DNA of 55,917 nucleotides from Tubiluchus corallicola (Eukaryota > Animalia > Priapulida). Location: contig JAQGDQ010000199.1 in the NCBI GenBank assembly GCA_030141605.1, positions 214,430-270,346 of the forward strand, read 5' to 3'. Positions 29,995 to 55,075 of this stretch are shown in pieces (position 1 is the first letter of the stretch; the number at the start of each line of letters is the position of its first letter). Below the pieces are notes generated by a model. The model was not told the origin of the DNA, searched no databases, and was given only the letters and a program-made list of their open reading frames with translations. Both the position numbers and the translations under genes were made by a program.

Positions 29995-32900
29995 AACATC
30001 TTATTGGAATAAAATCATTCCGAGGCTGTTGGCAATTTAACCAAGCAGATTTGGGCGAAGTTGTCCAAACACGAGATGACTGCATTCAAAATTGCACTGA
30101 TGAAAGCAAAATATATGCTTTACTTGTTAACGGTAACAAATGCTACTGTGAAAATGTGTTTGGTAGTGAAGGACCTGCACTAAATCCATGTAGTTATCAA
30201 TGTGGAACGTCAAACAAAGTAGAATGTACGCCTGGAGACAGTGACTGTAAAACATGCGGTGGTGAACAAGCTGCTGAAGTTTACAGAACAGGTAAATTTT
30301 AACTTACAGAAGTATAAATATTATTCAATATTGTCACGTGCATTTGTTTAGAACTGGTCATAGACAAATGTCATAGTTAACGTGTAATTATCTATCTACT
30401 GACGTTTAGTCTATCGTCGAAGTGTTAATAATGTCTGTCTTGATAAGTGTAACTTTCATAGCTTTTTACCACGTTACCTGGCAGCAGGAAAATGCATTAA
30501 AGAAATTTGGGTCCCTTTTTATTTATTTTGTTACTTTATGTTTTATTTTTTATTACTTTTATTTTTTCCATCATTTGTTTGTTTTCGTACGTAGTGAGTT
30601 GATTTGGGCAATTTGTTCTGGAAGAGATGCTCAAGCTTGCAAAGCCGTGTGTTTAGCCGCTCAGGTTACAATTTTGGCTAGGAAAGAAACATAAACAATA
30701 AAGTAACAAAACAGAAAATATTTAAAATCAGTTATTAACTGGCAGTACATCACTTGTACATATTGACAACACTATTTATATATGATGACATTACATGTAT
30801 GTGAAAAATGTCACGTTTTGTTCTATATCATAGGATTATGGTTATGACTAAGGGATAGGGTTAGTGTTAATGTTATTTCTTTTTTCCTGTAACTTTTTCA
30901 TCAGGTTCAAATGCGCCTGACCAGGTTTGAAGATTAGGACCAATCACCAAAATACGAATACTAGTCAGGTTCATCTGCAATGGTTTATTAATTTCCGGCA
31001 TACAATCATAATCTAATAACTCAGAATAGAGAAATTTCCATATTTGAAATAGCTAGATAGACGGACAGACAAGCGGTGCATTACAGAAACCGTTTGAAAA
31101 GACGTGTACAGCAAAAGTAAAAACAAATACAGGAACTTCCAGAGAGAACCCAGCAGTAGAGATATGCAGTTGCTGAAACGTGCTGATCAAATTACAAAGA
31201 ATGCAATGTTAACATGGACATTATATTGCCATTAAATAAATTCTCTCATCTGTAGAGTCGCTTTTATTACAGCACTGTATGTTTCAGATTATGATTTTCT
31301 TAACAAAACGTTGAACTGCCATGATGGTAATTATACTTATGAGTTGGAAGAAGACACCCGACTTGAACTGATGACCATGAACAGTGATATGTGCATCGGC
31401 CACTGTAGTGATAAGGGTAATTAATTAATGATTAGGTCGAGTCGTAGTGAGCATTTTTTTAATATTTTTCGTCGCTCTTTCACAATTTAATAGAATCTTC
31501 CTTTTGATGCTTTGTTGATAATTCATGGTGAATAAAGTGGTACCGTTGATTGTATTGTTGCAGACCTCAAGACCATCACAGTGTTTGCAAACATTAAATA
31601 AAATTAACTTGTATACAGTTATGATTGCTAGTCATAGTAGAGAAACCACAAACGAAAGCTTTGTATTTTTATAAAATTCGCATAGCTTTTCTCTAAACCC
31701 AGTTTTACAGGTGTGAATTCTAAGTCTTACTGATGATGACTCGGAAATTTTAGTGCCATTTTTTCAAATTAGCCAGATTTTTCACTCACTTCTAAATTTC
31801 GTGCTAGAATAATGGTGCCTCCAACTGAGCCCCATATTGTACAACGTTCACAACGATTCATGACTACACTGGATGGCTTTGAGCCTTTATATATTGCAAT
31901 TCCAGCTAACGGAGAAGATTGTTAAATGCTAGTCAAAACTGGTATCAGTTCACGATTAGCTTCCTATTCATCATAGCGACTTTGGCACTCGCTTAATGCG
32001 TCTTGTTTTCAAAGTTATCAGAACTTTCTATTTAGTAGGAAGTCTAAACTTTTTATTGCAAATAAAGTTTTTAATTTGGCACAACTTGCATGATTAACAG
32101 CGTTTACAGTAGTGATTATGTGTTTACGGTAACCTTGTCGACTGGTATACCACTTTTGTAAATTTCATAGGAAACCAGATTTCTCATATTGCTACTCTAC
32201 AGCTTGCTAAGCTGGTCTGCCAGCTGAAGCTTGGAAAACAAATCCCTAAATTTGTGTACCACAGTTATAAGCTTCCGTTCGGTAACAGAACGCTGCAACT
32301 CACTAATATATGCAGTGCATAAGATGTGATATAGGTGTTGGGTAGCTTCTGTCCACTCCTGAGTCATTAATAGACATTTTCCAAGACATACTCCCTCTCT
32401 CTCTCAACATCTTGTCTGGAATGGTGTGGTTTTTGACAATTAACCTCATGTCGTGATACTAATAATTACGCCGTTACTGCGATTTACATTAAATACGTTA
32501 CCATTTGTGGTCACATCGTTAAAGTACATATTTTGTGATTTACTTGATTTGAAACAGTAAGAATTGAACTCAAGCTTCTGTGTGCAAAATGTGTTGTTCA
32601 TCTTTAGCACTGTGGCACATTTTAGTTCTCTAACTGCTGCACAAATTTTCCCCAACTTAATGACCGCAGCAAAAATTTTACATTTCAACCACATTCCAAT
32701 CATAGCTGTAAAATACTTTTTCTTATTGTCAAATATCCTACTGTTGGTTACAACAACTGTGCCACCTGTAATAAAAAGTAACAATAAAAACCAAACTGAA
32801 ACAAAATTCATATAAACGGGTGTTGGATAACTAAAACCGTTCAGATATTGATATTTATAGTTCGCAAGGTATAATGAGTAGTGACGATTTGACAAAAGTA

Positions 32901-35900
32901 GAACGTACAAAGGAGCTAAGCTAGTAGCCAGTTATTGGTTTTCTGGAAGCCCGTTTGTGTGCTAGTGTTCCTCTTGTAACTGCAACTGCCTCTTCTCTTG
33001 TAGTCGCAAAACCCATTATACTTTGTGTAATTAACAAAAATTTGTTTTGCAGGGTATGCTTACGCTATCTTAGTGAATCATAACACCTGCAAATGTGGAG
33101 AATATCACACCTTTGATGAAGGAAAGGTTGATGATAGTTTTTGCGATTCACTTTGTTCGGGGACTGTTGTATTCAGGAAAGACTCAGCTTTTGATTACTG
33201 TGGGAGCCACTTGGGCAAATACATCAGTGTTTACACCACGCCAACAGGTATGAAGATAACTACTGCGTTTTAGCTTTAGCTCTATGAGGGTCGTGCATGC
33301 CAGCTGTTGTAGTATAGTCATTAATTTTAGTGAAATAGCATTTATACACAACCAAAAAATGAAGTGAAGTATAATAAGTAAAATTGCAATTAATATCTAA
33401 TTTACAAGAATCTAAATTGTACTTTCAGCTTGTCCACCAGGGCAGCACGGTTCAGCACCGGACAACTGCCAGGATTGTTCTGGTAACTGCTTGAATGACC
33501 TGTGCAGCAATATCAATGGGCATTGTTTCAACAACACTTGCAAAGAATTCTACAATGGTGAACTCTGTGATAAAGGTAAATTGGTTTTGCAAAGTTGCTT
33601 CTGCACTTCTGTGTAGAAAAAGAATGAGCAATATAATGTAAAAGATGTCATTGAAACTGACTGCAGTTACGATTAAACTCCTGTAGAAGTAGTTAATGTA
33701 TAAAATGGAGATTCCTATAATTTTTCAACAGTTTAGATGTTCGTAAAAGTTTATGTTAATAGGATACATCTTGCATAAGTCTAAACAGATTGAAAATAAA
33801 AATGAAGGTACTTGCAATTGAGCATTTTAGCGTAAAAGGGAAGCTATATCAACATATAAACTCTACCACTAAAATGATTTCTGAAAGCAAAGTTTATATT
33901 AACATAAAATTCAAGCCAGTCCCACGTAAGTATTTGAAAATTTTATTAAAATCACTTTACTTGCCCAACGTCTCTCTGTTATTTACCAAACGTTATTGTA
34001 GGTTAGGTTAATTAAATAAAACATTTCTTTTATAGAAAATCCAAAATTTGATGAAGGCCCTATGATAGAAGGCAAGGACATAAATGCGTATTTTCTCAAT
34101 ATCAGATGGAATGAGTGGACCACAAGTGATCAGACAGGAAGCGGTACTCCTGAGATGTACATTGTAAAATACGAGACTAACACGAAAAATGACGAAATTG
34201 TTTGTGAAGTTGAACATCGCGGAACGGAAGAGCCTTATTCATGTATACTTCAGCCGTTGTATTTAGGAGCGGAGTACAGAGTGTGGATTATAATAAACAG
34301 TGCTGAAGGAATCGGAAAGGATTCCCCAAAAACAACAGTAACAACAGCTTGTAACAGTACGTTATACTAACTATTGCCGTAGAAATTGTTGTCAATTAGT
34401 ATGTGGATACCTGTGTTAATGAAATAATAACGTTTATTTTTAAAGCTCACTTCAAGTTTGAAAATTTTTAAATAATTCTAAATTAAAAAAGCAAAAAAAT
34501 TTCCATATTTCTGTACACAAACGTAGCACTGTGCAATGACATTTTTTGTATGATTGTAATACTGAGAAATTAAGTAAATCTTATATGTCAACAAATTTGA
34601 AAACAATAACTATTATCCGTGTCTCTTGAGTGATTATTGTTCAGTCTATTTCAAGCCCCATTTTCTTACTATCTTTTACTGTTCTGAACATAACACTTAG
34701 TTAAACAACATCTCGCACTCGTTTAAATTTTTAAGATTTTCTTTCAGTTTAAAACATTCTGAGATCATCTGTATTTTTAATTGAAACAAAAGTCTTGCAT
34801 TCCCTTTTCAGATCCATTAGAGGCACCAACCATTCATGTAGCTGATCCAGAATTGGAAAAAGATCCAGATGCAGCAGATAATACCGCCATGACTACAATC
34901 ACTTTACCAGTAAGGATATTTTTCTGCCTTCCAGTCTAGGCCTAATAAAATCTCAGCAAGAATTATAATGATTTCTTGCTTCTTCCAATGACCAAATCGT
35001 AAGAATGTTCTTTTTTTTTGCAAATAAAGTTGCCTGAAGTTGAACTTATATTTTAGTGAAAAGTTAGTTCATCAATTATCGATAATATTTAAAATTACGC
35101 AGATCAAGATTATAAAAAAACTGCCATCGTTTCAAGTTTTACATTACATTAATTACACACAAGACATTAATAAAAATCTTCAAGATGTTTTGCTCAAGCT
35201 ATCATTAAGATCTGCAATTATGAGTAAGTTGCAACAAATTACATGCTTAAATGAGTTTGTAATTTGCAAGGAACAAGACAACACCACCATCATCAATTGT
35301 GAAAGCATTTCCGAGTATGAAATATACTACGATTCAGAAGATCATGAACACACTGGAAATGAAACCATCACTGGTGACGTAGCAAGCCACGATGTTTCAG
35401 GACTTCAGCCTTATTCCACTTACACTTTCACGGTCAGGTACAAGAATAACGAAGATTTCTGGAGTGCGAAAAGCGATTCTGCAATAGACACACCCCAAGC
35501 AGGTGAAGTGAACTTTTTTTACTAAACAGAAGTGCTAAAAGTAAAGATAAGCGAGAATTTTGAAGTAAGCCTACATTTTAAAAATCACAAAACAAAGAGA
35601 AGCATAGATCTAGTATCAGATAGTAAGTTTAACATTTTGTGCCAAAGACCCAAGAAACTACCATGACATTAAAACCTGCAATCCAGTTGGTTTATCAAGT
35701 AATTCGACTTATTTTTTACTAACTCAGTAGTTCATGCCCTATTAGTTTTTGACTGTCTTATACCCATTGCAATTTGAATTTCAAATTCTAATTTTAGCTC
35801 CAGGACCAGTGAAAGAACTCACTGTCACTGGAACTGCCACTGATGCTCTGGAGATAACATGGAGTCATCCCGATCAACCAAATGGGAAAATGGAACGTTA

Positions 35901-36398
35901 CAATGTAGAAATAACGTTGGTGCAATCACCTCACTGTAGTGATCATTCCCACAATATCACACATCACGCGAGTGGCACAGATGAACATTACACTGCACAA
36001 AATCTATGTGGTGACAGTGAGTATAAAGTAGCAGTTTGGGGAGAAACCAGTGGAGGTGAAGCGATTAACTCAAAACAGAATGCAACTGGTTGGACAATAA
36101 AAGAGGGTATTATAGCTACTATATTAGAATAAAGTATAAGTATTTGCAAGCTGTTGTATACTGCACAATAAACTAGAATTCGTTTAAGAATGAAGTTATA
36201 TCATTCTTAAAGTTAAATGAAACTGTAAACTGAAATACCTAAACTGGTAAACAAAACTGAAGACAGCATATCACTGAGGTAGTTTAAATACTGTGTATCC
36301 AGTTTGCGTAGTTACTGCCTATAAGTCATCAGGTTTCAGGATTATAGACAATGTTGTATTATTTTCACAGTTGTTACTTCATAACAGCTTAATTAATA

Positions 36399-36462
<64 letters not shown>

Positions 36463-38272
36463 TAAATAAGAATAATAGTAGTAGAGAATTACTTAAAAAG
36501 AAACTAGACAGAATGGATAAAAATACCATATATAGAAATCATTGGCGGTGAAGCAGTTAACTCAAAACAGAATGCAACTGGTTGGACAATAAAAGAGGGT
36601 ATTATAGCTACTATATTAGAATAAAATATAAGTTTCTGCAAGCTGTTGTATACTGCACAATAAAGTGAAATACATCAATGAAGTTATTTCATTCTTAAAG
36701 TTAGATACTCTAAAGTGAAATACCCAAACTGGTAAAACAAAACTGAAGACAGCATATCACTGAGCTCGTTTAAATACTGTGTATATTTAAATCCTGTTTG
36801 CATAGTTATTGCCCATAAGTCATCAGGATTCAGGATTACAAACAATGTTGTATTATTTTCACAATGTGTCTGTGTTTTATTATTTGCACAGTGTTTAGTT
36901 CTTAACAGCTTTAACTTGCAACCAGAGAGTTTTCACATAAGAGCATTCAAATTGGCATTGTCATAATATTCCATATAAAACTTCACAAGATTAGTGTCAA
37001 ATTTATTGAACTTCGCTACTGTCATTCTTAAAGTTAGATACTCTAAAGTGAAATACCCAAACTGGTAAAACAAAACTGAAGACAGCATATCACTGAGCTC
37101 GTTTAAATACTGTGTATATTTAAATCCTGTTTGCATAGTTATTGCCCATAAGTCATCAGGATTCAGGATTACAAACAATGTTGTATTATTTTCACAATGT
37201 GTCTGTGTTTTATTATTTGCACAGTGTTTAGTTCTTAACAGCTTTAACTTGCAACCAGAGAGTTTTCACATAAGAGCATTCAAATTCGCATTGTCATAAT
37301 ATTCCATATAAAACTTCACAAGATTAGTGTCAAATTTATTGAACTTCGCTACTGAATCTGCACATTATATCTGATTTTTGATTCCTCCATTATTTTCAGT
37401 ACCAAATGTCACCGTAGAAAATCTTACTCTCGTTCAAGCTACGAGCTCTGCTATAGAATATACATGGGAAGGGCCAGCAGACTGTTGTGGACTAAATGGG
37501 GAGTTTGTAACCTACAGCACAGAACTTTATGCCAGTGATGTACTAGTTGCTACGAAAAATGACTCAAACAATAATAAAATAATATACGATAGAGAAGATG
37601 GTGTAAGTTATGGAGAAACTTACATTTTTAAAATCTGGATTGTCAACGAAATGGGTAGAGCAAACATATTTGAAGAAGATCAAGTTACAACTCTTCTTCC
37701 TTATGGTACGTGTAAGATAGCATGTAAAAACTTGTGCAGAAAGCTGAACATATAAATAAAATGAAATTTTATTTGTAAGATTAGCATGTTTATAAGAATT
37801 ATTAATCATGAAGAATTAGCATTTCGCAGTATAATTTAGAAAGATTCATCTCTAAACAAGCTATATTGTTATTATTGGATTAAAGTATATATCTACAAAC
37901 TGACACATTTCTTTTTTAGTATGTGATCCAGAACCGTGCAATAATGGCAAATGTGTCGTTGATGAAAATGACTATGACAACTTTGACTGTGACTGCAGTG
38001 GAACCGACTTCACAGGAAGCTGTTGCCACATTTGTAAATATCTAGCATCTAAGTTATATTTAATTCTTGTTCATGAATTTTGAATTATCTGACCTGCTGT
38101 TCACAAATAAGTATTACTACAATTTGTCTTGTAATAATACTTTTCTGCTTCTTCCAAATTTCACTCTTCGTTTTGGTTTCCTTATAGATAGGTAATTGGT
38201 TAGTATTTTACAACCTTACATGAGTACCTAAGTTATCGTTTAATTAATTATTTATAATCTTAATGTCAATAG

Positions 38273-38307
<35 letters not shown>

Positions 38308-41300
38308 CTTGATTTCACCAATATATATATATATTGATGATATCAAGCTTTGAAAAGGAGGAAATGCGAAAATTTGGAGCACAGCCTGGGTTTGAACCAG
38401 GGATAGTCTTCTAACATAGTAGATGGCATAACAGCAAAATTACTGCGTTTTTTTATTTTTTTATTTTTTACTATCTCAATTATTTCATTTCATTTATTCA
38501 TTAAATATATCCACAATGATCATTATAGCATTGTACATAAAAGTATTTAATAACATATTTATTATTATGTGCACAAGATGCCAAGCCGCAAATGACCCGT
38601 GGGGTACTCAAGAAGTAATTACTTGTTTAGAGTACCCCAAATGAATGAGGACTGAGTGTAATAGAAAAGAGCAGTAAAGGAGTAGAAGGAAAGGTTAATA
38701 GAGAATAAAAAGAAGGAGAATGATGTGGTAGTATCTGTATGAGTAACATGACCTATAGAAATGTAGAAATTGACATAGCCAGCAACACAATGGATTCCGA
38801 CAGGGACAGCAGTGTAATTAATCAAATTGATTTATTCTGTATAATTAGAAAAGATTTCAGTAAAGAATTTTTTATGTATTCGTTGATGTTATTCCAAAGT
38901 CTAGGGCCAGTGTTAGTGATGAAGTGCCTTGCCGCGTCAGTCCTGCAATACTTAATACAAAATTCGTTAAATCTTGTTGAGTAATGTCTTACGTTAATAG
39001 ATAATGGGTTTAAAAAGAAAGCGGGGTGAAGTTTATGTTTGGCTTTGTAGATGAACACAGCCGTATTCAGGTTTATTAGATCATTTAGCACTAGGATAAA
39101 ATAATTCTTAAAAAGATTAAGACCTACATGTTCACGCTTGTTCAAATTAGCTATCAATCTTATAAATTTACGTTGTAGAGAGTTTAGTTTAACTAGAGTT
39201 GAAGGGTAGGTGTGCCCCCAAAGTATATTACAGCAGGTCAAGTTTGGCAGTACTAGACAATTATAAAGAATGATTAGGTATTCTTTTGAAAAACAATGTT
39301 TAACTGGACTGATTAAGCCAATGTTCTAAGCAACTTTAGAATGAATCATGTTTAAGTGTGGTTTCCAATCTAGGTGTTCATTTAACATAACCCCTAGGAA
39401 CTTCATTTCGCTTACTTGTTCTACAGCATTACCATCAATTTTTATAATACTGTTCATATTTATAGGTTTGTTACGAGCTCTGAATAAAATGTATTTAGTT
39501 TTAGTTGAGTTTAGTGCTAATTTATTGATTTTAAACCAGGCTGTAATTTTACTGAGTTCACTATTAATAATGTTAGTGTCAAGACCTTTCCATTGTCAGT
39601 AATACAGTTTTGTAAGTCATTAATGTATATTAAAAACAACAGAGGTCCCAAAATAGATCCCTGGGGTACTCCGTGTGTGACTATTGCTTCGTTGGAAGGA
39701 ACATTGTTACATCTGACTGTGGTCCTTGAGGTAATTAGCAAAGCATGAGTATGCGATCCCTCTAATGCCATAGTGGAATAACTTATCTAACAGAATAGCA
39801 TGATTAACTGTATCAAAGGCCTTAGAGAGATCACAAAAAATGCCAATGGCAACAGCGTTTTGTTCTAATGAATTAATTACGTTGTTTACTATATTTATTA
39901 GGCCTAGCTGTGTTGAACTACCCTTGAACGTTCCCTGGCCATTATGGCAGTTCAAAGTTTATTAATTATAGCTACCGGCCACTTCAGCATTTCTATGCTT
40001 ATGTAAGAGTGATGCTAACTAATTAGGTTAATTTAAATTTAGATTATTTTTGAACTCGAATTTCACGTGAGCAATTAACAATTATTTATAACTTAATATC
40101 GGCTTATATTTAAAATAAGAAATGTGAAAACGTTGAGACATAGCCATGATGATCCCTGAGGAGCATAGTAGTCTAGGGTTACCCAGAAGGTCCCTGGTTG
40201 AACGCCAGGCTATGTTCAAAATTTCTCACATTTCTTATTTTTTCAAAGTCTAGTTTCAAAATTCACTTAACTGTGGGCTTTTATAACCATTAATCGTCTA
40301 GTTCTTACTTAACTTCCATAGTCTTGAACTGTTCCACGTCACCATGCATGAACAACGGAACATGTGAGGATGTACTAGAACCTGACGATTGTGACTGCAG
40401 CGCTAGTTGTGAGGAAGTCATCGCATATTTTACATGCTACTGTCCAGAGGGTTATGAAGGACGCTTATGCGAAAGTACTTTTTACATAATATTATCGTCT
40501 TTTATTAGCAAAAAATTGAGATAAGTTTTTAGGCGATTGACACTCATAAAAGAATTGCAAAATGTTCAATTAGAATAGTCACGTTGATTTAAGTCGATGT
40601 ATGGATAAATTTTTGGCACAAAGCTCACGGCTTTTTTGTTTTAAAAACTCAGCCGTAGAAGTTGATGTGAGAACAACACATTCTCTGTGACTACCACTTA
40701 TGTTGCTGCCACCACAGCCACCAAGTGCCATCACCAACACCAATACCATCACCACAACCACTCACAAGCCACGGCTGTTAGTTCTTACTATTGTCTCTGC
40801 TTGTTGCCATCACCATAACCCCATATCATGATCACCCACCAACACCAGCACCTCTACCATCATCATCGCCACAACCACAACCAGTACCACCACAACCGCA
40901 ATCTAATTCTCCTTCCACCTCTGCCTCATTCGTCCCTTTTCCTCCTCCTGTTTATTCCTCTTTGTTTTGTCCTCTTCCCCCTTTGCCTTATTCTTCTCCT
41001 TTTCTTCCTTCTTCTATGGGGGCCGCTCATACTACTAGCTGTTGACACATCTCAAAAGGAAGCACTTACCAAGTTATCACTGAAACTTATAGTTCAAGCA
41101 AATCATATAATAGCTGAAAAACAGCACTAGTTGCCAATAAAAATAGATTCATAAATAAATAAATAAATAAATGGTTCTGTTTGCAAAATTCAAGTAGAAG
41201 CTTTGTATTTTAGAGCTCGACCCGGAGAAAACCGAAAATTGGTGGATCTTCGTTGTAGCAGCCGGTGTTCTGTTGGTCATCCTTTTGGCTTCATTTCTTT

Positions 41301-44300
41301 ACTACAAAAGCAAGAAACGTATTCAAGCTAAAAAAGATGAATCGGCTACTGAACTCAGTCTGGAAAACACACAAAATGGTTAGATAATACACGTACATGC
41401 ATCTGCTCTCTTATATGTCATGAAAGATTTCCATTATTGTACAGAAATAATTTTATTGTTTGTGCTGCTGTTATTAAAGAACTATGTAAATTTTATGCAA
41501 GTGTATGAAAGTGGTTTATTGTGGGTATTGTTGGGCATATCCCATCACTCGGTAAAAGACAGTCAATCAAGATGTAGTATCTTGTTCGCATCATTGTCTT
41601 TGTTTATCTCTGCTGTTTTTTCATTTGTTGGGGTTCATTTAAAGGAAAACCGGATGATTATTTAGACTCATGCTTATTTTAATTTACTGTCCAAAATATA
41701 TGTTTTCTTGCCTATAAACGTTAGCAATTGTTTCTTACATTTGAATAATTTGTTTAGAAAGTTACTAGCACGTTTGCATAAGTGTTCCTGCTGAAACGCA
41801 TGATGCCACGAAATCATGATGCCATGACGTTTTTGTCATATGACGCCAGAAACTAACACTGCAGTTCATGATTATGGTTATCACTGTACCGCCTTCTATT
41901 TGTTGGCCGCGCGCACGTTACAAAAAGGCGCCATTGCCAATTTCAGTAGATTCACTGAGCCGCGCGTAGCTTTGAAAGTTTGAGTATCCAAAGTAATTAT
42001 TGTTTAATTTAAGCTTTGATTCAAAAAACGCTATTGCAGTTTTCAATATTTTAGAGCATTCTCTATTCTGAACTAATGTTTACACAATCAGCCGGTTTTC
42101 TTTTAACTTAAGCTGATACCAGCCAGAATAAATTAAATTTCCAAAGCTCTCTCACAAAGCCAGAATTGCATATGTGTTTTTCCGTAACCTGAACTTCTAT
42201 TAGGTCTATCCGCCACATACGCATATTGACATAACAGAGACTTGATACAAGACACTGCAGGAATTCACTGAAATCTACACATGACCTACGAATAATAATA
42301 TAATCAAATAGTTATCCTGCATTTGTTGACAATATTGAGAAAAAGGTTTAAACCGCGCCATTGCCTTGTATACATGCACTTTAAGGTAAACCTGTTTTCA
42401 AAAAAGTAATGCGTAGGCCTACAGACATTTCAATTTCTTATGTGCATGCGGAATCATATTGAGTTAAGCATCAACATTTTTCTACATTATTATCCAAAAG
42501 TCATGCTTTAAATGTGCTGAATTTCTTCCCTGCACATTCGCAAATGAGAATGTAGATAATCCAGCAGCCAGGACATCAACGTATGCCAAATATTAAGCCA
42601 GTGAAGACCCTGACCTAATAGAAGATCCAAATTTCCTCGAAAACTAACACACAGACCGCGACTTCAATATTGCTTTACCAGTCAAAATCAACAACCACAG
42701 CGTGAAATTCTAAGACAAAATTGAAAGATTTAATGAAAAAACACATAATATTTTTGCATTATTTCAATAAAAGATTTATTGCCATTGGAAAAATAGATAT
42801 TGAGTATTGGACGAGTAAACCCCATCCCCACATTGCAAAATAGTTTAATATTCAGTTTCGCTGTTATCACAATGTAAAGTTGATTTACCTTTTTCACTGT
42901 ATTTATAGGACAATATGATGCTCTTAGTGCAGAAAATCCAGACGAACACATTTACGAGATAATTGGTGAAACACTAATGGGATGCAAATGCGAGGTTAGG
43001 GTAGCTCTCAGAAGCAAAACCGAACAAAGTGAAGAGGTTAACAGTGCAGTAAAAGAAACTCGTCGAAGAGTATATGAAAATGTAAAACCCAACTCTGATA
43101 AGCCGCTACCCGTTCAACTAGGAAAATTGTTCGACCAGATTTTATTGGAGAAGGAAAAAAATAATGGCTTCTGTAACGAGTTCGATGTAAGTCGCTTAAG
43201 TAATCCAACATGTCGTGTCAGCTGGCATAATTAATTTTGCTGCGATTTGTAATTTTCATGTATTCAGCTCCGCATATTAATTGAAAGCTCTCGATCTAGT
43301 GTGGTCCCATTGTTTGGTGTAATAGAAATCCGAGTGTACTGTAGTATACTCCAGCGAAGTCTCATAACAATCCGGTGTGAGATGGCATGATTTTAGGCTT
43401 TCTGTGAAAATTGTGTTATCACAGCTATCAAGAATTCAAAATAGACTGACTCCGCCAATCAATGCAGAATTTGTAGATTGTCAATTGCAACTGCCATGGA
43501 GATTTAAGCTTTTGCAAAAACTCATTCCATAACAGCAATAGCAACAACATCATCTCCCAAAAGCAGCTATTTGGAAGTTCCACTTGCCAGCTTGTTTCCA
43601 CCTGAAGAGCAAAAGACTCTGTCGAATGTTTGCACATTATTGATAATTGCCAAATTGGCCTAATAGCATTTTTTCACGGCACATAATTTCAGCTAATTGC
43701 AACATTTTTTGCATGCTATTGTCATAACATTGTCTTATGTTGATGTTGTTGATGCCATCGCTATCGTCATCGACACAAGGTGATGTAACGTAGTGGGTGT
43801 GGTGTGATTATATGACAAAATAACGATATGGCGTAGTGAACGGGACATTCTGTGGTGTTGTGTGCTGTGGTATATTGTGATGTGATGTGGTGGGTGTGGT
43901 ACAATGAAGTGAGGTGGGTGGATGTGGTGTGGAGTGGAGTGGGTTGTTCTTGTGGTATAGATTGTTGTTGTGGATTCATAAGCAAACTTCATTTGCAGAG
44001 TTCGCTACCGAGTTGGATGGTTACCAAATTATTTTTTCCAAGAAATAGACCAAGTGTGAAAAAATTTAGTAGCAGGAAAAGAGTAACAACAAGAATGAAG
44101 CTGTATCCTGTGTAAAAGTAAAAATGGCAAAGAAACGTATTTTACTGTAGACTTAAATGTTTAAATATTTATTTTATGACTTTACTAGCACAAAAATACT
44201 GTACATTTGTCTTACTATGCAAGTGTTTTAAACAAAGAATTTGCTGATCAGTAGGGGCAGGTGCACATTAGAGTTACTACACAAGACCTTATAGCTCCAG

Positions 44301-47300
44301 CTGCGGTAATATGCTGATCTTTATTAGATGCACAACCAAAACATTAAGCTACACTAATAAAAAACGAATGCCTTTTCTTAGTCTCAAAAAATGTTTTTAA
44401 ATGTCACAAGCCTTAACCTTAATATGCATCATCAGCTGAATTAACAATAATGAAAACTTGTGCTGTTTCAGGCTAGCAGCACAAGTTTCTGAAGTAACTT
44501 TGGACAAAAGCTCCTGGCAATAAAAAAAGCAATTCAATTTTTTGCAGTCTTTTCAGGCAATACCTATCACAAGTCATCACGTGTCTAATGCTGGATTAAA
44601 TTTGGAGTCAAAAAACCGTTTTCAAGATGTTATCCCATGTAAGTAGATCAATGTGCTTGCCCAGTTTTGTCAACATTATAAACCTAAATAATAGAGATAT
44701 ATCCAAATTAATTTACGGATCGATGAATTCTATATTGCTTCGCCCTACATGGTCTTTCCCGATCATCAGCCAAGTGGTACGGTAAGACACATGATCCTGT
44801 TACATAAGGTTCGGCTGGTTGGAGTCCAGCTGAAGGGACTTGATGTCCAACTTAGAGGTTACCTGGATTTTTCTTGATTCACTTCCTTAATTACAATTGC
44901 TAAGCCATGTGTGATTGATTACTTTTGAGTCTTAATATTAATCTAATATTAATATTTAATATTAATCAAGCTTGCTCATAAAATAAAATAACAATTGTGA
45001 ATTTTGTAGCTATCGCATTTTATGTTAATCATTTTCAGATGACAACTACCGTGTCAAACTTCTTCCAACAACTCGACTTTCCTCTGATTATATAAACGCT
45101 TCTTACGTTGATGTAAGTTCATTTTTTGATACAGTATATTGGAAGACAATAATTTATATTTAAACTGGGTTCACAACCCTGTTCAAATATAAGGTATTAC
45201 CTACCAATACTATTTCAAGCTAAACGTTAACTAACATGGGAAAATATTTGCCCGCCAATTAATTTACTTGAAATTACAAGCTCAAATTTTAATTATTTGT
45301 TTTTTCCCGACGAGCTTCCACGAAATAACGTTAATCGTAATATAAAACCGGATTCATTACAATGGTAAAATTTAATAGTGTTTAAACGACATACCCTGGC
45401 ACAAAAAAAAACTAAAAAAGCAAGTAACCAAAACGGGAAAATATTTGCCAGCCAATTAATTTACTTGAAATTATAAGCATAAATTTTAATAATTTGTTTT
45501 TGAAATTAGATATGAGTGCAAATGACTAAAAGCTCAAGGATAAAAAATTAAAGGCTTTTTGTAAATTACTGATGAAAAAATTATTCTGTCCTAAAATTAA
45601 ATCTGATTTTAGATTTTTTCAGATGCAGATCATGTTGTAAATTTGATGGAAAACAAAATTTAATGTTTGTTGTAATTAAAGGGCTATAACCAGGAGAATT
45701 CAGTCATTGTGACCCAGTTACCATTACCAACCACAATCACCGACTTTTGGTGCATGGTTATGGAACAAAGTGTAGCAACTGTCGTGATGCTGAATCAGTG
45801 GCCGTTGAATCAAATGGTAGACCAAACATTTTCCATATAAAGTGTTTTTGTTCAATTTCAACTTTATGCCTTCGATCAATAATCAATTAATATATGAATT
45901 ACAGAAACTTTGTTGTATTAACATAGGTTGTACATAGAATGGACATTTTCAAATAAATCACTGCATGTGACAAAAAATGAAAAAAAATCTCGAAATCTAA
46001 ATTTTAATTCTCTTGTTTGGCCCCATAAACAGGACTACTGGTAATAAGAAGTAGTAATATACATACATTTCAGGAATGTCCACAATACTGGCCAGAGCCG
46101 GGCGGAAAAGCACAACATGGTGGTATTACAGTAAGATGCAATTTGCCAATAAAGCGAAGCAAGTATTACGACATAAGGATACTTGAAGTTGCAAATATTT
46201 ACAATGTAAGAATTTCAAGCTTCCATACTGTATAACGTGGTGGTATTACAGTAAGATGCAATTTGCCAATAAAGCGAAGCAAGTATTACGACATAAGGAT
46301 ACTTGAAGTTGCAAATATTTACAATGTAAGAATTCCAAGTTTCCATACTGTACAACGTGGTGGTATTACAGTAAGATGCAATTTGCCAATAAAGCGAAGC
46401 ACGTATTACGACATAAAGATACTTGAAGTTGCAAATATTTACAATGTAAGAATTCCAAGTTTCCATACTGTTCTAACTAACACAGCAAGATGCAGCAGCA
46501 GTGCAGTGTGTGTAATCTGTGTGTAGTGTAATGGTGTGTGACAGATGTGTACAGAAGTACGTGTAACAAAGGTGTATGCAAAAGTTCTTTATAGTAGTAA
46601 TCCTAAAGCGAATTATACGTTCTATCTGTTACTGATAGTAAAATATTGTCATTTTTGCTAATTTGTCAACACTGAACATGTATTGAAGGAAACCATCACT
46701 GGCGTTCCGTAAACAAGAGTCTTTACAATAACTTACAACTTTATAACCAATATGTTTCGACCTTTAAGCAACCTTGAGAGTTTAGAGTGTGATATAATTT
46801 GCAACACGCAAAGGGCATTTTACTTTTTGAGGTTGTAAAAATTATTCTACTGTACAAGGCATGGAATTCTAAATGCACTTGCTTTTTCTAGAATGAGTCA
46901 CGAACACTGCATCATTTTCACTTCAAGTCTTGGCCACTTGAAGCAACAATACCTTCATCACCACAGGCCTTTCTGAATCTTCTAAATGCTGTTAAAAAAT
47001 GGGAATTGGACATAAAGAATGAAAAAATTGTTGTACAATGTCTGTAAGTTTGTTACTATAGCTACATAATTATAATTTTTTAAAAAATAAATTGCAAGTG
47101 AAATTCATTTTGCAGAGTATTGTGGATACAGACGTTCGTGCTACTTGTAGAAATATGCTGAGAACAAAGAAACTTAAGATTAACATTAATTTATGTTCTT
47201 CGACTAGCAATATCTTTCAGCTGAATGTTTGGCAAACCTCTTAGAGTTTCAAAGCTGTAATCATGCTCTTTCTTGCACAGAGATGGCGCACAAAGATGTG

Positions 47301-47704
47301 GATTATTCACTGCATTGAGATGCACCCTGGATAAGATTGAAGATGAGGGGCTTATTGACATTTACTCGATAATTAAACACCAGCGGTCTATCCGACCACA
47401 GTTTATACCTAACTTAGTAAGTAATCTAAGAAAATTTGCACTTCTGTAAACGTGATGCACAGATTTCTGTCTACTTAAAAATATTAAATTGCCTCGTTCT
47501 GCTTCTACATGTGGATTTGGCATTTCATAATTTGCGGGTCTTACTTTAGAGGTGACGCAACAATCATTTCTTTGTTTTTTTCAGGAACAATACAAATTTT
47601 GCTTTGAAGCTGTGTCCGCATATTTTCAATTAAAATCAGCAGCTTCGGGAAATGTACAGCATTCGGCTACTTCTGTAAAACAAGAACCATATTATAACAT
47701 TTAA
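29995..47704 (+). CDS. Single-pass receptor WSC x2-EGF-FN3 x4-EGF x2-TM-ITAM-like-PTP domain (receptor PTP-like, probably inactive); ~1190 aa assembled, start exon not found
   Basis: 20 phase-consistent exons with no in-frame stop: 29995-30291, 31288-31416, 33053-33247 (WSC); 33429-33575 (EGF); 34036-34356, 34812-34909, 35271-35502, 35798-36106, 37400-37705 (FN3); 37920-38033, 40322-40474 (EGF); 41214-41378 ([29 protein letters not shown]); 42909-43186; 44557-44638 (KNRF); 45039-45112 (DYINAS); 45682-45816 (TQLPL..T..DFW); 46074-46205 (CPQYWP); 46892-47043; 47281-47416 (VQCLDGAQRCG across the junction); 47585-47704 (EQYKFCF...YYNI*). AATAAA near 47866. Confidence 0.88.
36051..37353 (+). repeat. 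Local duplications: ~36051-36370 copied at ~36544-36864, and ~36690-37020 copied at ~37023-37353
   Basis: Direct sequence identity; an (AAT)n tract at 36395-36462 separates the first pair. Confidence 0.85.
38480..39925 (-). mobile_element. 5'-truncated, frameshifted LINE (L2/CR1/Crack-like) in a receptor intron
   Basis: [64 protein letters not shown]; 3' UTR stem ggggtactc / gagtacccc at ~38600-38638. Confidence 0.9.
41643..42102. mobile_element. Non-autonomous TTAA DNA transposon (Kolobok-like), copy 2
   Basis: TTAA|AGGAAAACCGGATGATT ... AATCAGCCGGTTTTCTT|TTAA. Confidence 0.8.
45191..45500 (+). mobile_element. Partial copy of a MITE-like dispersed repeat
   Basis: Near-identical to ~49074-49313, with an internal partial duplication at ~45435-45500. 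Confidence 0.7.
46112..46471 (+). repeat. 120-bp tandem repeat x3 spanning a PTP exon 3' end and its donor
   Basis: AAT|GTAAGA donors at 46206, 46326 and 46446. Confidence 0.95.
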
Positions 47705-49073
47705 ATTTAATAATTTCAATTAATGCTCAGTTATTTTTAATAACTGACTAGTCCAATACTCAGTTTCGGTGGCTGATTTGATAACTGATGTCTTTCGCCA
47801 CCCATTCACATTTGTTTGATAATTTAATTTATACTTATTTTCTATGTATTTTTATTGGGATAAAAATAAATTATATGATTTAATTTGATTAATTAACAAT
47901 CAAGTTGACTAAGTAACCGCACAAATTAAAAGCTGTCAGTAACGGTGAATTTACCATTACTGATTTTCATACTCAGATATATTAAAATAAATACAGGTAT
48001 AATGATGGTGTGCATTATAATTAAAATTGTAAGATACAATGATTGTGATTTTAAAACATGATTAATAGTTAGCTTCAACATGTGTCAGTTAGGCATATAA
48101 AATGCTAGCATCTGTGCTAAATTTCCCTGCAAAAGGAGGCATTGTGTGTATATTTCTATTATGCCAAGCAAAGTTTTAATATCATAATCATCATAGAGTT
48201 TAAGTTTAAACACTAAAGAAGATGACAAATACCATGACAACGCGAATAACAGCAGAGATGTTTACAGTCACATGGAAAATATCTCATTAACATAATTCAG
48301 AAGATTCCAAGAAAGGCAATTAAAATTTACAGGCTGCAGCTCAATGGCTTGCAATGGATTAGAACGACTTACACCGTCAATTATGGCACCCTCCCACACG
48401 TGATTGCTGGAAAATTTATTTAAATTAGATACAATATATTTTCGTCTTATCTGTAAAACATTCAAGTACATATAGCACAACGGCAGTAAATAGGATCTCA
48501 ACTTTGAGCTACAAGAGACCAAAATTTCACATAATTAAAATAAAACAAAAATAAAAAGGTGACATAGTGCAATTTTAGATGTACTAAAACCAGGAAATAA
48601 ATTGTTATAAAATGCAAAAGACCACATAAATGACAAAACTAATAAAATAATTAGTGTTTCACCTATATTTCATCTATACATTAGTATTCTCCATTTTTCC
48701 AGCATCTCAAACCAAACTTTGGCAGTAATTTTACATTCTCAGGCTTTCCCATTAAATAATTAAACTTACCTAGATCATTCCAGTCATTAAATGTGGTTTC
48801 GTATTAAAATATCCATTGATCAAATTGGTTCGTTAATTGTCAAAAACATTGTAATAAGACGTGCGTCACATACACGATAGTACCTCAATTACACAATTAA
48901 CATTATCGTTCATTACCTAGGATTCTTTCATAATACACTGTTTCACTTCTAACTAGGACAGTGCGGCCAGTGCCACATTTAAGTGACGAATTGTATTACA
49001 ATGTCTGGCTTCAGAACCCTGTTGAAATATCTGGCTTCAGAACCCTGTTGAAATATCTACCAATATTGGTAGA

Positions 49074-49412
49074 AAGGTATTATCTACCAATACTATTGCA
49101 AGCTGAACGTTAACTAACATGGGAAAATATTTGCCCGCCAATTAATTTACTTGAAATTACAAGCATAAATTTTAATTATTTGTTTTTTCCCGACGAGTTT
49201 CCGCGAAATAACGTTAATTATAATATAAAACCGGATTCATGACAATGGTAAAGTTTAATAGTGTTTAAACGACATATCCTGGCACAAAAAACTAAAAAAG
49301 CAAGTAACCAAAACTTTACATTCCGGATGAGTTGTGTACAAAAAAACGAATGGAGTCATTGTCGTACTGACGTAGCCATCTTTGCTCATTATAGAGCATT
49401 TAGTAGGTAATG
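49074..49412. mobile_element. MITE-like element, fuller copy
   Basis: Imperfect TIR atta(t/c)ctacc / tagtaggtaat; second copy at 45191. Confidence 0.6.
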
Positions 49413-49723: not shown

Positions 49724-49763
<40 letters not shown>

Positions 49764-51221: not shown

Positions 51222-54200
51222 ATGAAAATCCGGACGTGTTTATTTCTGATTACAATAACAGGTAAGTAAAGCAACAATTCAGCTCATGAGTAAAACATTT
51301 CTACATTTATGATATAAATTCTGTGTTAGATTGTTACAGGAATACACAGCACAGATCAGACTGGTGTTATCGAAAATTTGTTTTATTGTATATGACATTT
51401 ATGTTAATAAAGCTCAGGGGAGAAACCTATGGTACATTAACCTGGTTATCTATTTGTAACAGGACTGAAACTGTCAGAAATCTTTTTATGATTGTCGTTA
51501 AGATAGGGTTATGCGATTATCCATTTTTAAAGTAAACCACGATATGTATTTCTTTAATTGTTTGTGTCTCACTACTTTGAACATTTAATCATTTTTATTT
51601 AGTCATTCGTTCTTCCTATTTCAAATGTTCACAAACCAAGAATAAAAAACAAGCAAAATTTGACTAAAATGTGGCCACAACAAAACAAATAATTATTCAT
51701 TCAATTCATTGATAATACATACTTCACAAGCTATAGTTTGATCCTCACATTACAAATTTCACAAATATATCTTGTTAGTTAACTATCATAAATGTTTACT
51801 TACATATTAGCAATTACATGAATAGCATATTATCACATATAGCACAATGCACTAAAGCACAATAATCACCTTATAAGGCATAAGATAAATTCAAGATAGG
51901 TGCACCATAATTTTATCTGTAATTTAGCACTACAGGCCTATACAGAGGGACTTGCTCTGTTAGCCAGTGAAAGCTAAGAAAATCGTCCTTGTTGCTCATG
52001 TCGAGTGGCCTTATATAAACTTTTCCTTCATAAATTAATCTAAATAGTGGGCTTCATGCAATCCATACTTGTATGGTATGAAACTACCTACAGACCTAGT
52101 CTAAGGGCAAATCTGAGTTTAACATTCAAGGCTATATTATAAGACTGTGGCTAAAGGAAAATTCATGAACTTGAAAAAATGCTAGAGAATTTAGGGGGGG
52201 GATTTTATAGACACATAAAATGAAATTTATCTTCGGGAAATATATATGCGATTTCCCGACAGGTGTAATATAAAGGCCTATGAATAACTGGTACAATTTT
52301 GTAATTTCATGAATGATATCGTGGAATAAATTACCTAAAGAATATGTTTAAGTGTGAAATGTTAAGGCTAAATGAGATCATAATTATTTGGAGTTTTCGC
52401 AAGAACCTATCATAATAACTGTTCCTTTCAGCAATAAAACGCAAGTTCCATTTTAGGTTAACCATAATCAGTTAACAGTCACACTAAACCTGTTCAAAAC
52501 AATTTTACGTATTTTAATTTTTTTTAACTTTACGGATAATTTTCAAAAAAAATTCACACAAAATCAATGCGAAGAGATTGTATTAGTTTTTTTATCATTT
52601 GAGAGAAATTGTCAAAATAAGTTCGTCAACGAAAGTTGCCATAGAACAGTAATAGTTAAAAGTTTTTTGCCGTGAAATTTGCTGAGAATTTCTCTGGCAA
52701 GGCTAATTCTATGCAATTAAAAAGTAATTTTAACGAGTTTCAAGAAAGAGTTTATAAGTCTATATTATTTTAGTCACAATTTGTAAGTCAGAGTAAATGC
52801 TTTACTCTCTCTTGAGATTAATAGGCGGCACGTGGAGACTTGATATGAGGCAGACTGGATGCTAAGAATCATATCTGGTATTCTGGTATATAATCCATCT
52901 ATGTATTAATTTTTATAGTTTGTTATATTTCCAGCTGTTTGTGTGCTGTTTGCACAGACATATGAATATGAAGGATGCTTTAATGCAAAACACGAGGGCA
53001 ATCAAGATTTGCCAATCCAGCTTGCTAACAAAGATGAGCCAGAAGACTGCATAGACGCTTGCATAGAAGAAAGTTATCCATACGCTGGGTTATCATCACA
53101 ATCTGCACCACAGAGCAAAATAATATGTCGTTGTGGAAACAAATACGGAGAATTCGGGGAAACAAACAGCAGCTCTTGTCAGGGATGTGGAAGTCAAAAT
53201 GGATACAATTGCGGAAATGGTGAAGACTTCAATGCTGTTTATAACACACTTCGTAATGTCTGTTAATTTTAGGGAAAATGCGAATTGCTCTACTAATCAG
53301 CTCACATACACAAACAATGTCTTACAAACTCTGCATTTGTAAAACTACTTATTAAGTTCGTTGCCTTTAGTACAGAAAAGTACAAAAGACAGAATCTGAA
53401 GATCACTTATCATGCAGCAAAAATATGAGATTTCTATTATAATCTCGATGTAACGTAATAACTAAAATCTTTGTGTAACATATTAACCTAACATGCATTA
53501 AAATGTTGTTAACATTCTGCTTACATTAATCATAATCATAATAATAATACATTACAAATGCGCATCGTTCTCCGAAAATAGAAATGTGGTAAAAACTTCT
53601 TCAATAAAATATATTATGACGTTTGCATGATGTCAGTGAGCGCTCAGTTACCAATCCCGTGGTTGGTTCAGGAGCGTCTCTAAGCGTAATGGAATATTCC
53701 ACTCTTGCATTAGACGCAGTAAAACTGCTGCTTGGTACCAGTGAACTGTTACAATGACCCAAAGACCGCCTAAGGCAAAGACGTATTGTTTGTGAAAAAA
53801 ACTGCGAGAAAGAGTCTAAACAAAGTAATACACAAAAATATTTTCCGGTTTTAATTTTTTTAAGAATGTTTTCAACGTACCCAGTAGCTAGTGTTAATTG
53901 CTAATCAGCATCCTTTCATTAAGTAAGCGAGTGAGTGTGTGAGTTAGTGAGTGAGTGAGTGAGTGAGTGAGTGAGTGAGTGAGTGAGTGAGTGAGTGAGT
54001 GAGTGAGTGAGTGAGTGAGTGAGTGAGTGAGTGAGTGAGTGAGTGAGTGAGTGAGTGAGTGAGTGAGTGAGTGAGTGAGTGAGGGAGTGAGTGAGTGAGT
54101 GAGTGAGTGAGTGAGTGAGTGAGTGAGTGAGTGAGTGAGTGAGTGAGTGAGTGAGTGAGTGAGTGAGTGAGTGAGCGAGCGAGCAAACGAGTGATTGAGT

Positions 54201-55075
54201 GAGTGACAACACGGCTTACCCACAACCAGGATAGATTTAAATTAGTTTAAATTTCAACAAATTAACTTTTCGCCATTTTGCCACCTTTTGTACGTTCAGT
54301 CGTGCAGGGCTTATAAAGGTTATAAAAGTAATTTTGAAATGTCTAGACTCTAGTGGAAGTTCAGTGATTATTATGTTAGTTCTAGCTCCAGCCATTTGTC
54401 CGCACTACAATATTGTGTCTCATGTGTTGTTGGCACCACACTGTCAAGAGCATGAAACCAGAAGAAATTGGTATCCCAGATAGTTAGAGTTTACAATGAA
54501 CTAATAAAATTTTTTATAATAGTTATTTCAACACATCTCATGCAAGAAATCTCAAGCTATACAGCAGACAAAAACGATCTTCTTTCACGTAAAATGCTCA
54601 ACACTTACACAATTCATGACAATAGGAAGCTGTTGCTAGCCTTTAGGTAATCAGTGATCACCCTCTTATGCACATTCCAGAACTTATCTTTAATGAATAA
54701 GACCAGTGTTCAAGATGGTTAAGACGTTGTCCATATGACAAGTTTAACTATAGGCTGGGACGAGCACAGTAAAATGAATAAATAAAAGTATCATCTTAGT
54801 TTTTCAGACTGCACGTCACGAGTTTCGTGGATGTTGGAATTTTGGCACACCACTTACCACTTATGCTGCCAATGTTTCTGACTGCATGAGATATTGCATA
54901 GGAACAAACAGATTTGCTGCTACAAAAACTACTCCTTCGGGTAATAACTGTAATTGTGGAGCCAAATTTGAAGGACAGGATGTTCCTGAAGGGCCGTGTC
55001 GTGAGAATGTGGAACTCCAGGGTGATTTTTGGGGTACTGACAATACATATGCCCAAGCTATATACGAAGTCGGAG
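51222..55075 (+). CDS. 5' part of a paralogous WSC-domain receptor/secreted protein (signal peptide + WSC + WSC); continues beyond window
   Basis: Exons 51222-51261 (MKIRTCLFLITIT, G|GTAAGT), 52935-53252 (AVCVLFAQTYEYEGCF...CIDAC...YPYAGL...CRCGN...C..CG...CG...NAVY), 54800-55075 (EFRGCWNF...DCMRYC...CNCG...AIYEV); all phase 1. Confidence 0.8.
53925..54205. repeat. (GAGT)n microsatellite
   Basis: Direct reading. Confidence 0.95.

What the first reader, a model, noticed from the sequence alone, without database searches (positions are those of the whole stretch)
29995..55075. Tandem WSC-ectodomain receptor family coupling an ITAM-like motif to a pseudophosphatase: candidate invertebrate immune or recognition receptor system
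Seen: one complete-looking architecture, WSC-WSC-EGF-FN3x4-EGF-EGF-TM-(YxxL-x9-YxxI)-single PTP domain, followed 3.5 kb later by a second signal-peptide/WSC/WSC gene in the same orientation. Known: WSC is a putative carbohydrate-binding module (yeast Wsc1, Kremen, polycystin-1); classical receptor-PTP subtypes R1-R8 do not use WSC ectodomains; ITAMs recruit Syk/Shark kinases, as in Draper. Inference: a lineage-specific glycan-sensing receptor array in which an RPTP scaffold has become an activating or docking receptor. I know of no named family with this combination, but unannotated homologs may exist in invertebrate genomes.
Basis: partly seen in the sequence, partly recalled or inferred. Interest (0 to 1): 0.85.

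Follow-up and report, generated by a model that had tools for sequence, protein, structure and literature searches.

The report
Receptor phosphatase missing its catalytic core
This intact 20-exon invertebrate gene is predicted to encode a cell-surface receptor with WSC (likely sugar-binding) domains outside and one phosphatase domain inside that is built on the normally inactive second domain, so it likely signals as a docking or decoy receptor rather than as an enzyme; a starfish gene model shows the same kind of loss independently.

Summary
The architecture is real: 20 GT-AG exons (29995-47704) give 1194 open codons, WSC-WSC-EGF-FN3x4-EGF-EGF-TM-(YxxL-x9-YxxI, YENV)-one PTP domain-YYNI; the signal-peptide exon was not found. 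The single PTP domain is not a decayed D1. Its core groups with D2 pseudophosphatase domains of invertebrate PTPRK/M/T-like receptors (AU rejects D1, p=0.023), while its first helices are D1-like: the active D1 core was likely deleted in frame between matching introns. An Asterias rubens model has the same hybrid; a Solemya model has the reverse. WSC heads on such receptors are not new: a Priapulus RefSeq protein has WSC-EGF-FN3-TM-D1-D2 and is the nearest relative. The ITAM-like pair is present (0.2-0.4% of shuffles) but in 0 of 74 homologues, and is untested. A tandem family is not supported: gene 2's WSC domains are 15-34% identical to gene 1's, and no TM lies in the window. Clustered glycan-head RPTPs tied to immunity are known in snails. 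The scan's earlier findings hold nothing on this gene or motif. Verdict: new variant of a known kind; likely a docking/decoy receptor.

The parts
29995..30291 (+). Gene 1 exon 1 (first found): end of presumed signal peptide and WSC domain 1
   Evidence: Pfam WSC E 5e-5; fold top hit yeast Wsc1, weak
31288..31416 (+). Exon 2: first half of WSC domain 2
   Evidence: alignment with other WSC domains
33053..33247 (+). Exon 3: second half of WSC domain 2
   Evidence: Pfam WSC E 5e-4
33429..33575 (+). Exon 4: EGF-like (stabilin/MEGF type) domain
   Evidence: Pfam EGF_STAB1-2 E 0.0065; collinear with the Priapulus EGF
34036..34356 (+). Exon 5: FN3 domain 1
   Evidence: Pfam fn3 E 9e-6
34812..35502 (+). 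Exons 6 (34812-34909) and 7 (35271-35502): FN3 domain 2
   Evidence: Pfam fn3 E 7e-8 for exon 7; splice model
35798..36106 (+). Exon 8: FN3 domain 3
   Evidence: Pfam fn3 E 2e-9
37400..37705 (+). Exon 9: FN3 domain 4
   Evidence: Pfam fn3 E 0.016, under cut-off
37920..38033 (+). Exon 10: EGF-like domain
   Evidence: cysteine spacing in the sequence; no Pfam hit
40322..40474 (+). Exon 11: EGF domain
   Evidence: Pfam EGF E 3e-6
41214..41378 (+). Exon 12: transmembrane helix with basic stop-transfer stretch
   Evidence: sequence; hydropathy
42909..43186 (+). Exon 13: juxtamembrane region and D1-type N-terminal helices of the PTP domain
   Evidence: profile score +14.9 bits for D1, 0 of 40 D2 domains reach it; D1 better in 29 of 29 pairs
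42914..42964 (+). ITAM-like pair YxxL-x9-YxxI; second tyrosine in an acidic, hemITAM-like context
   Evidence: 0.2-0.4% of shuffles; 0 of 74 homologues
43073..43084 (+). Juxtamembrane YENV motif, same motif and place as in Priapulus XP_014672142
   Evidence: YxN in 19 of 74 homologue juxtamembrane regions
44548..45112 (+). Exons 14 (44548-44638) and 15 (45039-45112): pTyr-recognition-loop region, D1 or D2 origin ambiguous
   Evidence: profile scores -2.7 and -0.2; D1-like against Priapulus
45682..47416 (+). Exons 16-19 (45682-45816, 46074-46205, 46892-47043, 47281-47416): D2-derived core with WPL loop, CLDGAQR P-loop, altered Q-loop
   Evidence: trees, AU test, motif table
47585..47704 (+). 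Exon 20: last PTP helix and tail ending YYNI, stop codon; AATAAA at 47865
51222..51261 (+). Gene 2 exon 1: ATG and first part of signal peptide
52935..53252 (+). Gene 2 exon 2: end of signal peptide and WSC domain
   Evidence: Pfam WSC E 1e-6, over cut-off
54800..55075 (+). Gene 2 exon 3: WSC-like domain; gene runs on beyond the window
   Evidence: no Pfam hit
22904..22958 (+). Weak candidate for gene 1's start/signal exon (joins in frame, good donor, modest hydrophobicity); unproven

Best explanation
Gene 1 is predicted to encode a type I membrane receptor that likely descends from a two-domain WSC-headed receptor tyrosine phosphatase like the one in Priapulus and likely lost its active D1 core by an in-frame deletion between matching introns, so that it would act as a catalytically dead docking and decoy receptor. 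Shown: intact reading frame, one PTP domain, D2-type catalytic loops, D2 placement of exons 16-20, four cytoplasmic tyrosine motifs. Inferred: the deletion joined D1's first helices (and perhaps its pTyr-recognition loop) to the D2 core at intron 13 or intron 15. Inferred from known RPTP biology: ligand binding by the WSC head (glycan or protein; untested) would cluster the receptor, Src-family kinases would phosphorylate the juxtamembrane and tail tyrosines, which with no attached active D1 would stay phosphorylated and recruit SH2 proteins (YxN motifs: Grb2 type, recalled; the YxxL/I pair: possibly a tandem-SH2 kinase), while the D2 surface would bind the partners of active sibling RPTPs and shield them, as human PTPRU does.
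For: Splice model with no break over 1194 codons despite a long branch of 1.3-1.5 changes per site. No second set of PTP exons in the window. Exons 16-20 fall in the D2 clade (99/95*) and a D1 placement is rejected (p-AU 0.023); exons 13-15 fall on the D1 side (99/100*). Exon 13 profile score +14.9, reached by 0 of 40 D2 domains; against Priapulus, D1 scores higher for exons 13, 14, 15 and D2 for all of 16-20. Motifs: literal WPD in 39 of 40 D1 and 4 of 42 D2, absent here; P-loop C+1 is S in 40 of 40 D1, L here; C+2 is D here and in 27 of 42 D2; the first Q-loop Gln (35 of 40 D1) is P here. Independent parallel: Asterias rubens P0053 switches from D1 to D2 at exactly the junction that matches intron 13 and nests among starfish paralogues; the middle domain of Solemya P0015 is the reverse hybrid. 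Priapulus P0002 is collinear in the ectodomain (E 4e-14, 21%), shares YENV, and its D2 is the sister (88/76, not starred). Precedent for decoy/scaffold action: 10.1101/805119 (passages), PMC9640194 (abstract).
Against: A D2 origin of exons 13-15 is not rejected (p-AU 0.336); in that tree the query is a long branch and two D2 rows also fell on the D1 side. Exon 17 scores D1-like (+9.3, D1 better in 32 of 40 pairs), so slow D1 evolution may bias the D1 calls; the single-switch gain (19.2 bits) was matched by one true D2 (20.0 bits). The catalytic Cys and Arg are both kept, so residual activity is possible. P0053 and P0015 are automatic gene models whose DNA I did not see. Function, ligand, expression and phosphorylation are all untested. 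No start exon was found.
Confidence: 0.55

Rival explanations
1. It is a true activating immune receptor: WSC domains sense microbial glycans and the YxxL-x9-YxxI pair recruits Syk or Shark as in Draper, making it the activating partner of inhibitory, D1-bearing siblings.
For: Spacing of 9 is inside the 6-9 definition in PMC4034164 (passage); 0.2-0.4% of composition-kept shuffles give such a pair; the second tyrosine has two of the three acidic positions of the hemITAM defined in PMC12582321 (passage); glycan-head RPTP clusters lie in snail schistosome-resistance loci (PMC12297450, PMC13712769, passages).
Against: 0 of 74 homologues carry the pair, and the D1-less starfish protein has only the single motif of its D1-bearing paralogues; the first tyrosine has no acidic residues just before it; the shuffle test was chosen after seeing the motif; gene 2 is not a close paralogue.
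Confidence: 0.2
2. The domain is still an enzyme with low or changed specificity; the receptor works like a single-domain (R3-like) phosphatase.
For: Cys-x5-Arg intact (Arg kept in only 18 of 42 D2); KNRF loop with the following Asp-Val is D1-like; a Glu follows the WPL and aligns with the WPE of PTPRA D2; WPD-to-WPE mutants keep residual activity (10.1101/805119, passage).
Against: General-acid Asp, P-loop Ser-Ala and the first Q-loop Gln are all replaced together; D2 domains have negligible activity (PMC2638020, passage).
Confidence: 0.1
3. The loss of D1 is an assembly or haplotype artefact, or the gene is a decaying copy.
For: No start exon found; local duplications overlap exon 8 and exon 17; no single contig bridges intron 13 or 15.
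Against: No N in the window and all phases fit; no stop or frameshift in 20 exons over a long branch; DNA contigs of run X1 cover the exon 13/intron 13 edge, most of intron 13 in pieces and the intron 15/exon 16 edge (X1 may be the source sample); the same junction type occurs in another phylum.
Confidence: 0.12

Closest known systems
Priapulus caudatus XP_014672142 (RefSeq 'PTP kappa-like', P0002)
   Same: WSC-EGF-FN3 head in the same order, juxtamembrane YENV, nearest D2 in the wider tree
   Different: One WSC, more FN3 and a Fn3_PTPRU domain, intact D1 with WPD and HCSAGVGR plus D2, no ITAM-like pair; a predicted protein with no functional study found
Asterias rubens 'PTP T-like isoform X1' (P0053)
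   Same: Single PTP domain made of D1 helices joined to a D2 core at the junction matching intron 13
   Different: Ig-EGF-FN3 head without WSC, no ITAM-like pair, separate origin inside a starfish clade; automatic model
Biomphalaria SudRes1 / LG5R MEGF- and galactose-binding-domain RPTPs (PMC12297450, PMC13712769; passages read)
   Same: Invertebrate RPTP with a putative glycan-binding head and EGF domains; candidate recognition receptors
   Different: Tandem PTP domains, fucolectin/GBD rather than WSC head, shown to be clustered and linked to resistance; WSC and ITAM do not occur in either main text
Human PTPRU and the PTPRK D2 domain (10.1101/805119 passages; PMC9640194 abstract)
   Same: Catalytically dead receptor PTP acting as decoy or scaffold; D2 binds partner proteins
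   Different: PTPRU keeps D1 and D2 and is dead by point changes in D1; MAM-Ig homophilic ectodomain (recalled)
Draper / MEGF10 ITAM receptors (PMC8092387, passages)
   Same: Single-pass receptor with EGF-type domain and paired cytoplasmic YxxL/I
   Different: EMI-NIM ectodomain, no PTP domain, Src42A-Shark binding shown by experiment

Membership tests
Invertebrate PTPRK/M/T-like two-domain RPTPs | FN3-containing ectodomain and one TM helix | tested here: met
Invertebrate PTPRK/M/T-like two-domain RPTPs | D2 domain in the clade of these proteins | tested here: met
   99/95*; D1 rejected, p-AU 0.023; names are those given by the sources
Invertebrate PTPRK/M/T-like two-domain RPTPs | Tandem D1 + D2 with an active D1 (WPD, HCSAGxGR) | tested here: not met
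   one set of PTP exons, D2-type motifs: a derivative, not a canonical member
Invertebrate PTPRK/M/T-like two-domain RPTPs | YxN motif after D2 | tested here: met
   YYNI at the end, after a longer tail; YxN in the last 14 residues of 45 of 74 homologues
Vertebrate R2B (PTPRK/M/T/U) | MAM and Ig domains at the N-terminus (recalled) | tested here: not met
   WSC and EGF exons instead; no MAM or Ig hit in the exon scan
R3 RPTPs (single PTP domain) | FN3-only ectodomain with one active D1-type domain | tested here: not met
   core is D2-derived; definition from the abstract listing of PMC5336234
Named fly RPTPs (Ptp36E, Ptp69D, Ptp52F, Lar) | 1:1 orthology in a tree | not tested
   no Drosophila sequences were among the proteins held
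R8 (IA-2) single pseudophosphatases | Single D1-type dead domain in the R8 clade | not tested
   no R8 row in the trees
ITAM receptors (Draper/MEGF10, CD79 type) | YxxL/I pair 6-9 residues apart | tested here: met
   spacing 9, upper limit of the definition in PMC4034164; outside the 6-8 form often used (recalled)
ITAM receptors (Draper/MEGF10, CD79 type) | Motif conserved among relatives | tested here: inconclusive
   0 of 74 homologues, but none is a close orthologue (PTP identity under 40%)
ITAM receptors (Draper/MEGF10, CD79 type) | Phosphorylation-dependent Syk/Shark binding | not testable with these tools
   needs a binding assay
WSC domain (PF01822) | Profile or fold match | tested here: inconclusive
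   gene 2 exon 2 passes the cut-off; gene 1's two domains are under it when scanned by exon; weak fold match to Wsc1
WSC domain (PF01822) | Glycan binding | not testable with these tools
   needs a glycan array
Clustered polymorphic recognition-receptor arrays (SudRes1 type) | Several close paralogues in a cluster with allelic diversity | tested here: inconclusive
   gene 2 is distant and cut by the window end; no genome held

The most novel reading that the evidence does not exclude
Invertebrates repeatedly flip receptor phosphatases from erasers into activators: because D1 and D2 share intron positions, one in-frame deletion removes the catalytic core, and here the product then gained an ITAM, giving a paired glycan-receptor system (active WSC-RPTP as brake, D1-less ITAM-bearing WSC-RPTP as trigger) parallel to vertebrate paired immune receptors.
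Probability: 0.15. Interest if true: 0.82.

Novelty: new variant of a known kind. Interest (0 to 1): 0.47.

Why it matters
D2 domains are normally studied attached to an active D1, and their independent role is an open question. A natural receptor that keeps only the D2 core, under long selection and with extra tyrosine motifs, is a direct test case, and parallel hybrids in a starfish and a clam model suggest a simple, repeatable route by which expanded invertebrate RPTP families change signalling sign. Whether this has to do with immunity is unproven.

Tried and rejected
Expression: no RNA holder listed for 29900-36200; run X1 reads through introns and is DNA, X2 touched only a repeat in intron 12; reads were laid only on 41190-47760, so the ectodomain exons have no read data. 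These blanks say nothing on expression. No whole genome held, so copy number and clustering are untested. Homologue search with WSC exon 1 found none (weak); search with the Priapulus WSC-EGF-FN3 region found only itself; WSC is in 1 of 27 scanned hits (27 of the 29) and in none of the 48 precomputed lists. Atlas: nothing over 0.77 for exon 13; only generic FN3-PTP clusters for P0002. PDB sequence search with gene 2's WSC: 0 hits. Start exon: the best-looking signal peptide (24819-24867) would put a stop at the joint with exon 1 and was rejected; candidates inside the LINE remnant were set aside. A starfish affinity of exons 13-15 was not upheld by the D2 tree and is treated as long-branch noise. 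Literature: searches listed no paper on WSC-bearing RPTPs or on D1/D2 hybrid domains; the library lacks most subscription papers, and sea-urchin and pan-eukaryote phosphatome surveys (recalled, not read) may bear on this; supplements were not read. Earlier findings by words, sequence and place: nothing on this gene.
Full report
Observation. Reading the window and joining exons by coordinates gives a 20-exon gene on + from 29995 to 47704. All 19 introns are GT-AG with matching phases, and the frame is open for 1194 codons. Pfam, scanned exon by exon, gives WSC (exons 1 and 3, under the curated cut-off), an EGF-like domain (exon 4), fn3 (exons 5, 7, 8 over cut-off; 9 under), EGF (exon 11; exon 10 by cysteines only) and Y_phosphatase in order over exons 15-19. 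A weak model of exon 1 (pLDDT 52, three sequences) has yeast Wsc1 on top in two fold searches, tied with PAN/apple folds (Z 5.6; E 0.047). The gene lacks an identified first exon: the best signal-like candidate would create a stop at the joint, and 22904-22958 is only a weak option. Gene 2 begins 3.5 kb downstream with a signal exon and two WSC-type exons and leaves the window.

The phosphatase domain. tblastn with 29 relatives finds one set of PTP exons and no D1 remnant in the introns. The catalytic loops are of the D2 type (40 D1 and 42 D2 domains): literal WPD in 39 of 40 D1 and 4 of 42 D2, but WPL-E here, with the one-residue insertion absent from all 40 D1; the residue after the catalytic Cys is Ser in 40 of 40 D1 and Leu here; the next is Asp here as in 27 of 42 D2; the first Q-loop Gln is Pro. 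Cys and Arg of the P-loop are kept. A tree of exons 16-20 puts the query among D2 domains (99/95*) and rejects a D1 placement (p-AU 0.023). A tree of exons 13-15 puts it on the D1 side (99/100*), but there it is a long branch, two D2 rows also fall on that side, and a D2 placement is not rejected (p-AU 0.336). Leave-one-out profiles score exon 13 at +14.9 bits for D1, which 0 of 40 D2 domains reach; exons 14 and 15 are in between; exons 16, 18, 19, 20 are D2-like; exon 17 is D1-like (+9.3) (rows covering under 60% of an exon were dropped for that exon). Against the nearest relative, Priapulus, D1 wins exons 13-15 and D2 wins 16-20. A single-switch statistic was not decisive: 19.2 bits, matched by one true D2 at 20.0. 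The simplest reading is an in-frame deletion from an intron in D1 to the matching intron in D2, at intron 13 or 15. That D1 and D2 share intron positions is recalled, not tested here.

Parallels. Asterias rubens P0053 (RefSeq model, cluster of 12 sequences) has one PTP domain that follows its paralogue's D1 up to the end of the second helix and its D2 from the matching residue on (78% identity). This is the position of intron 13 here, and P0053 nests among starfish genes, so the event is separate. It is the only D2-only case among 74 homologues with a TM. The middle of three domains in Solemya P0015 is the reverse hybrid, as unequal crossing-over would give. Both are automatic models; I did not see their DNA.

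Relatives. A search of 1.84 billion representatives with exon 18 gave 29 hits at 32-48% identity, mostly invertebrate 'PTPRK/T/epsilon-like' proteins with varied heads: Sushi, kringle and F5/8, fibrinogen, Ig, and WSC. Priapulus XP_014672142 has WSC-EGF-FN3 collinear with gene 1 (E 4e-14, 21%), the same juxtamembrane YENV, and its D2 is the query's sister in the wider tree (88/76, not starred; 38 rows, near-duplicates left out). Earlier unreviewed notes on this genome suggest a priapulid; my tree fits that but does not show it. So WSC plus RPTP is on record, and the new trait is the loss of the D1 core.

Tyrosine motifs. YxxL-x9-YxxI lies at 42914-42964. Such a pair arises in 0.43% (spacing 6-12) or 0.23% (6-9) of shuffles of the 92-residue juxtamembrane stretch, a test chosen after seeing the motif. 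Spacing 9 is the upper limit in PMC4034164 (passage), and the second tyrosine resembles the hemITAM-like motifs of PMC12582321 (passage). It is found in 0 of 74 homologues (a set with isoforms and 14 CD45 rows), including P0053, whereas YxN is common in the juxtamembrane region (19 of 74) and tail (45 of 74). Loss of D1 is therefore not generally tied to gaining an ITAM.

Gene 2. Its WSC domains are 15-34% identical to gene 1's, no closer than to Priapulus (21-34%), and its second WSC is one exon where gene 1's is split in two. It may be another WSC receptor, but a recent tandem array is not supported, and no genome was available.

How it likely works. [quoted passage not shown] By inference this receptor would be a ligand-clustered scaffold whose tyrosines are written by Src-family kinases and not erased in cis, and whose D2 surface competes with active siblings (0.55). 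A Draper-like Syk/Shark trigger (PMC8092387, passages) is possible (0.2); residual enzyme (0.1) and artefact or decay (0.12) are less likely. An immune role has precedent in snail resistance loci rich in glycan-head RPTPs with tandem domains (PMC12297450, PMC13712769, passages) but no evidence here.

Verdict. The gene is real and the pseudophosphatase call is right. The WSC head and the family kind are on record, the array is not shown, and the ITAM is a single untested motif. The D1/D2 hybrid and its recurrence were not found described in my searches. New variant of a known kind, interest 0.47.

Noticed in passing
window 599-2158 (-): Long exon of a cholinesterase-like protein (Pfam COesterase E 4e-114) in which the catalytic Ser and His positions are both replaced in the alignment to solved cholinesterases: a likely pseudo-esterase.
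   Followed up: partly
window 17288-18736 (+): 482-codon open frame with a 36-base unit repeated 17.6 times, giving Gln/Pro-rich 12-residue repeats; no Pfam hit.
   Followed up: no
window 46112-46471: 120-base unit in three copies covering the 3' part of exon 17 and its donor; read-through of the first donor meets a stop, so the extra copies are likely silent.
   Followed up: partly
window 36535-36597: Partial copy of the end of exon 8 with its donor in intron 8, beside a 333-base duplication.
   Followed up: no
window 45191-45434 and 49074-49314: Interspersed repeat (94% identical copies) in intron 15, one of the two candidate D1/D2 junction introns, and between the genes.
   Followed up: partly
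window 41639-42106: Very high-copy element in intron 12, hit by many contigs of both runs; by eye an inverted relative lies near 21150-21560.
   Followed up: no
window 42987-43766 and 47626-47684: Run X1 holds a second version of exon 13 (2 silent, 2 replacing differences) and exon 20 (1 and 1) among the rows shown; allele or paralogue not resolved, 54 rows not shown.
   Followed up: partly
window 24376-24723 and 25069-25311 (-): Two open frames that look like exons of a gene facing away from gene 1; no significant Pfam hit.
   Followed up: no
window 29101-29604, 38822-39958, 6638-7138: Broken LINE reverse-transcriptase remnants, recognised by eye in the frame lists.
   Followed up: no
P0015 (Solemya velum) and P0053 (Asterias rubens): Three-domain RPTP with a D2/D1 hybrid middle domain, and one-domain RPTP with a D1/D2 hybrid: the two products expected from unequal crossing-over between D1 and D2.
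   Followed up: partly
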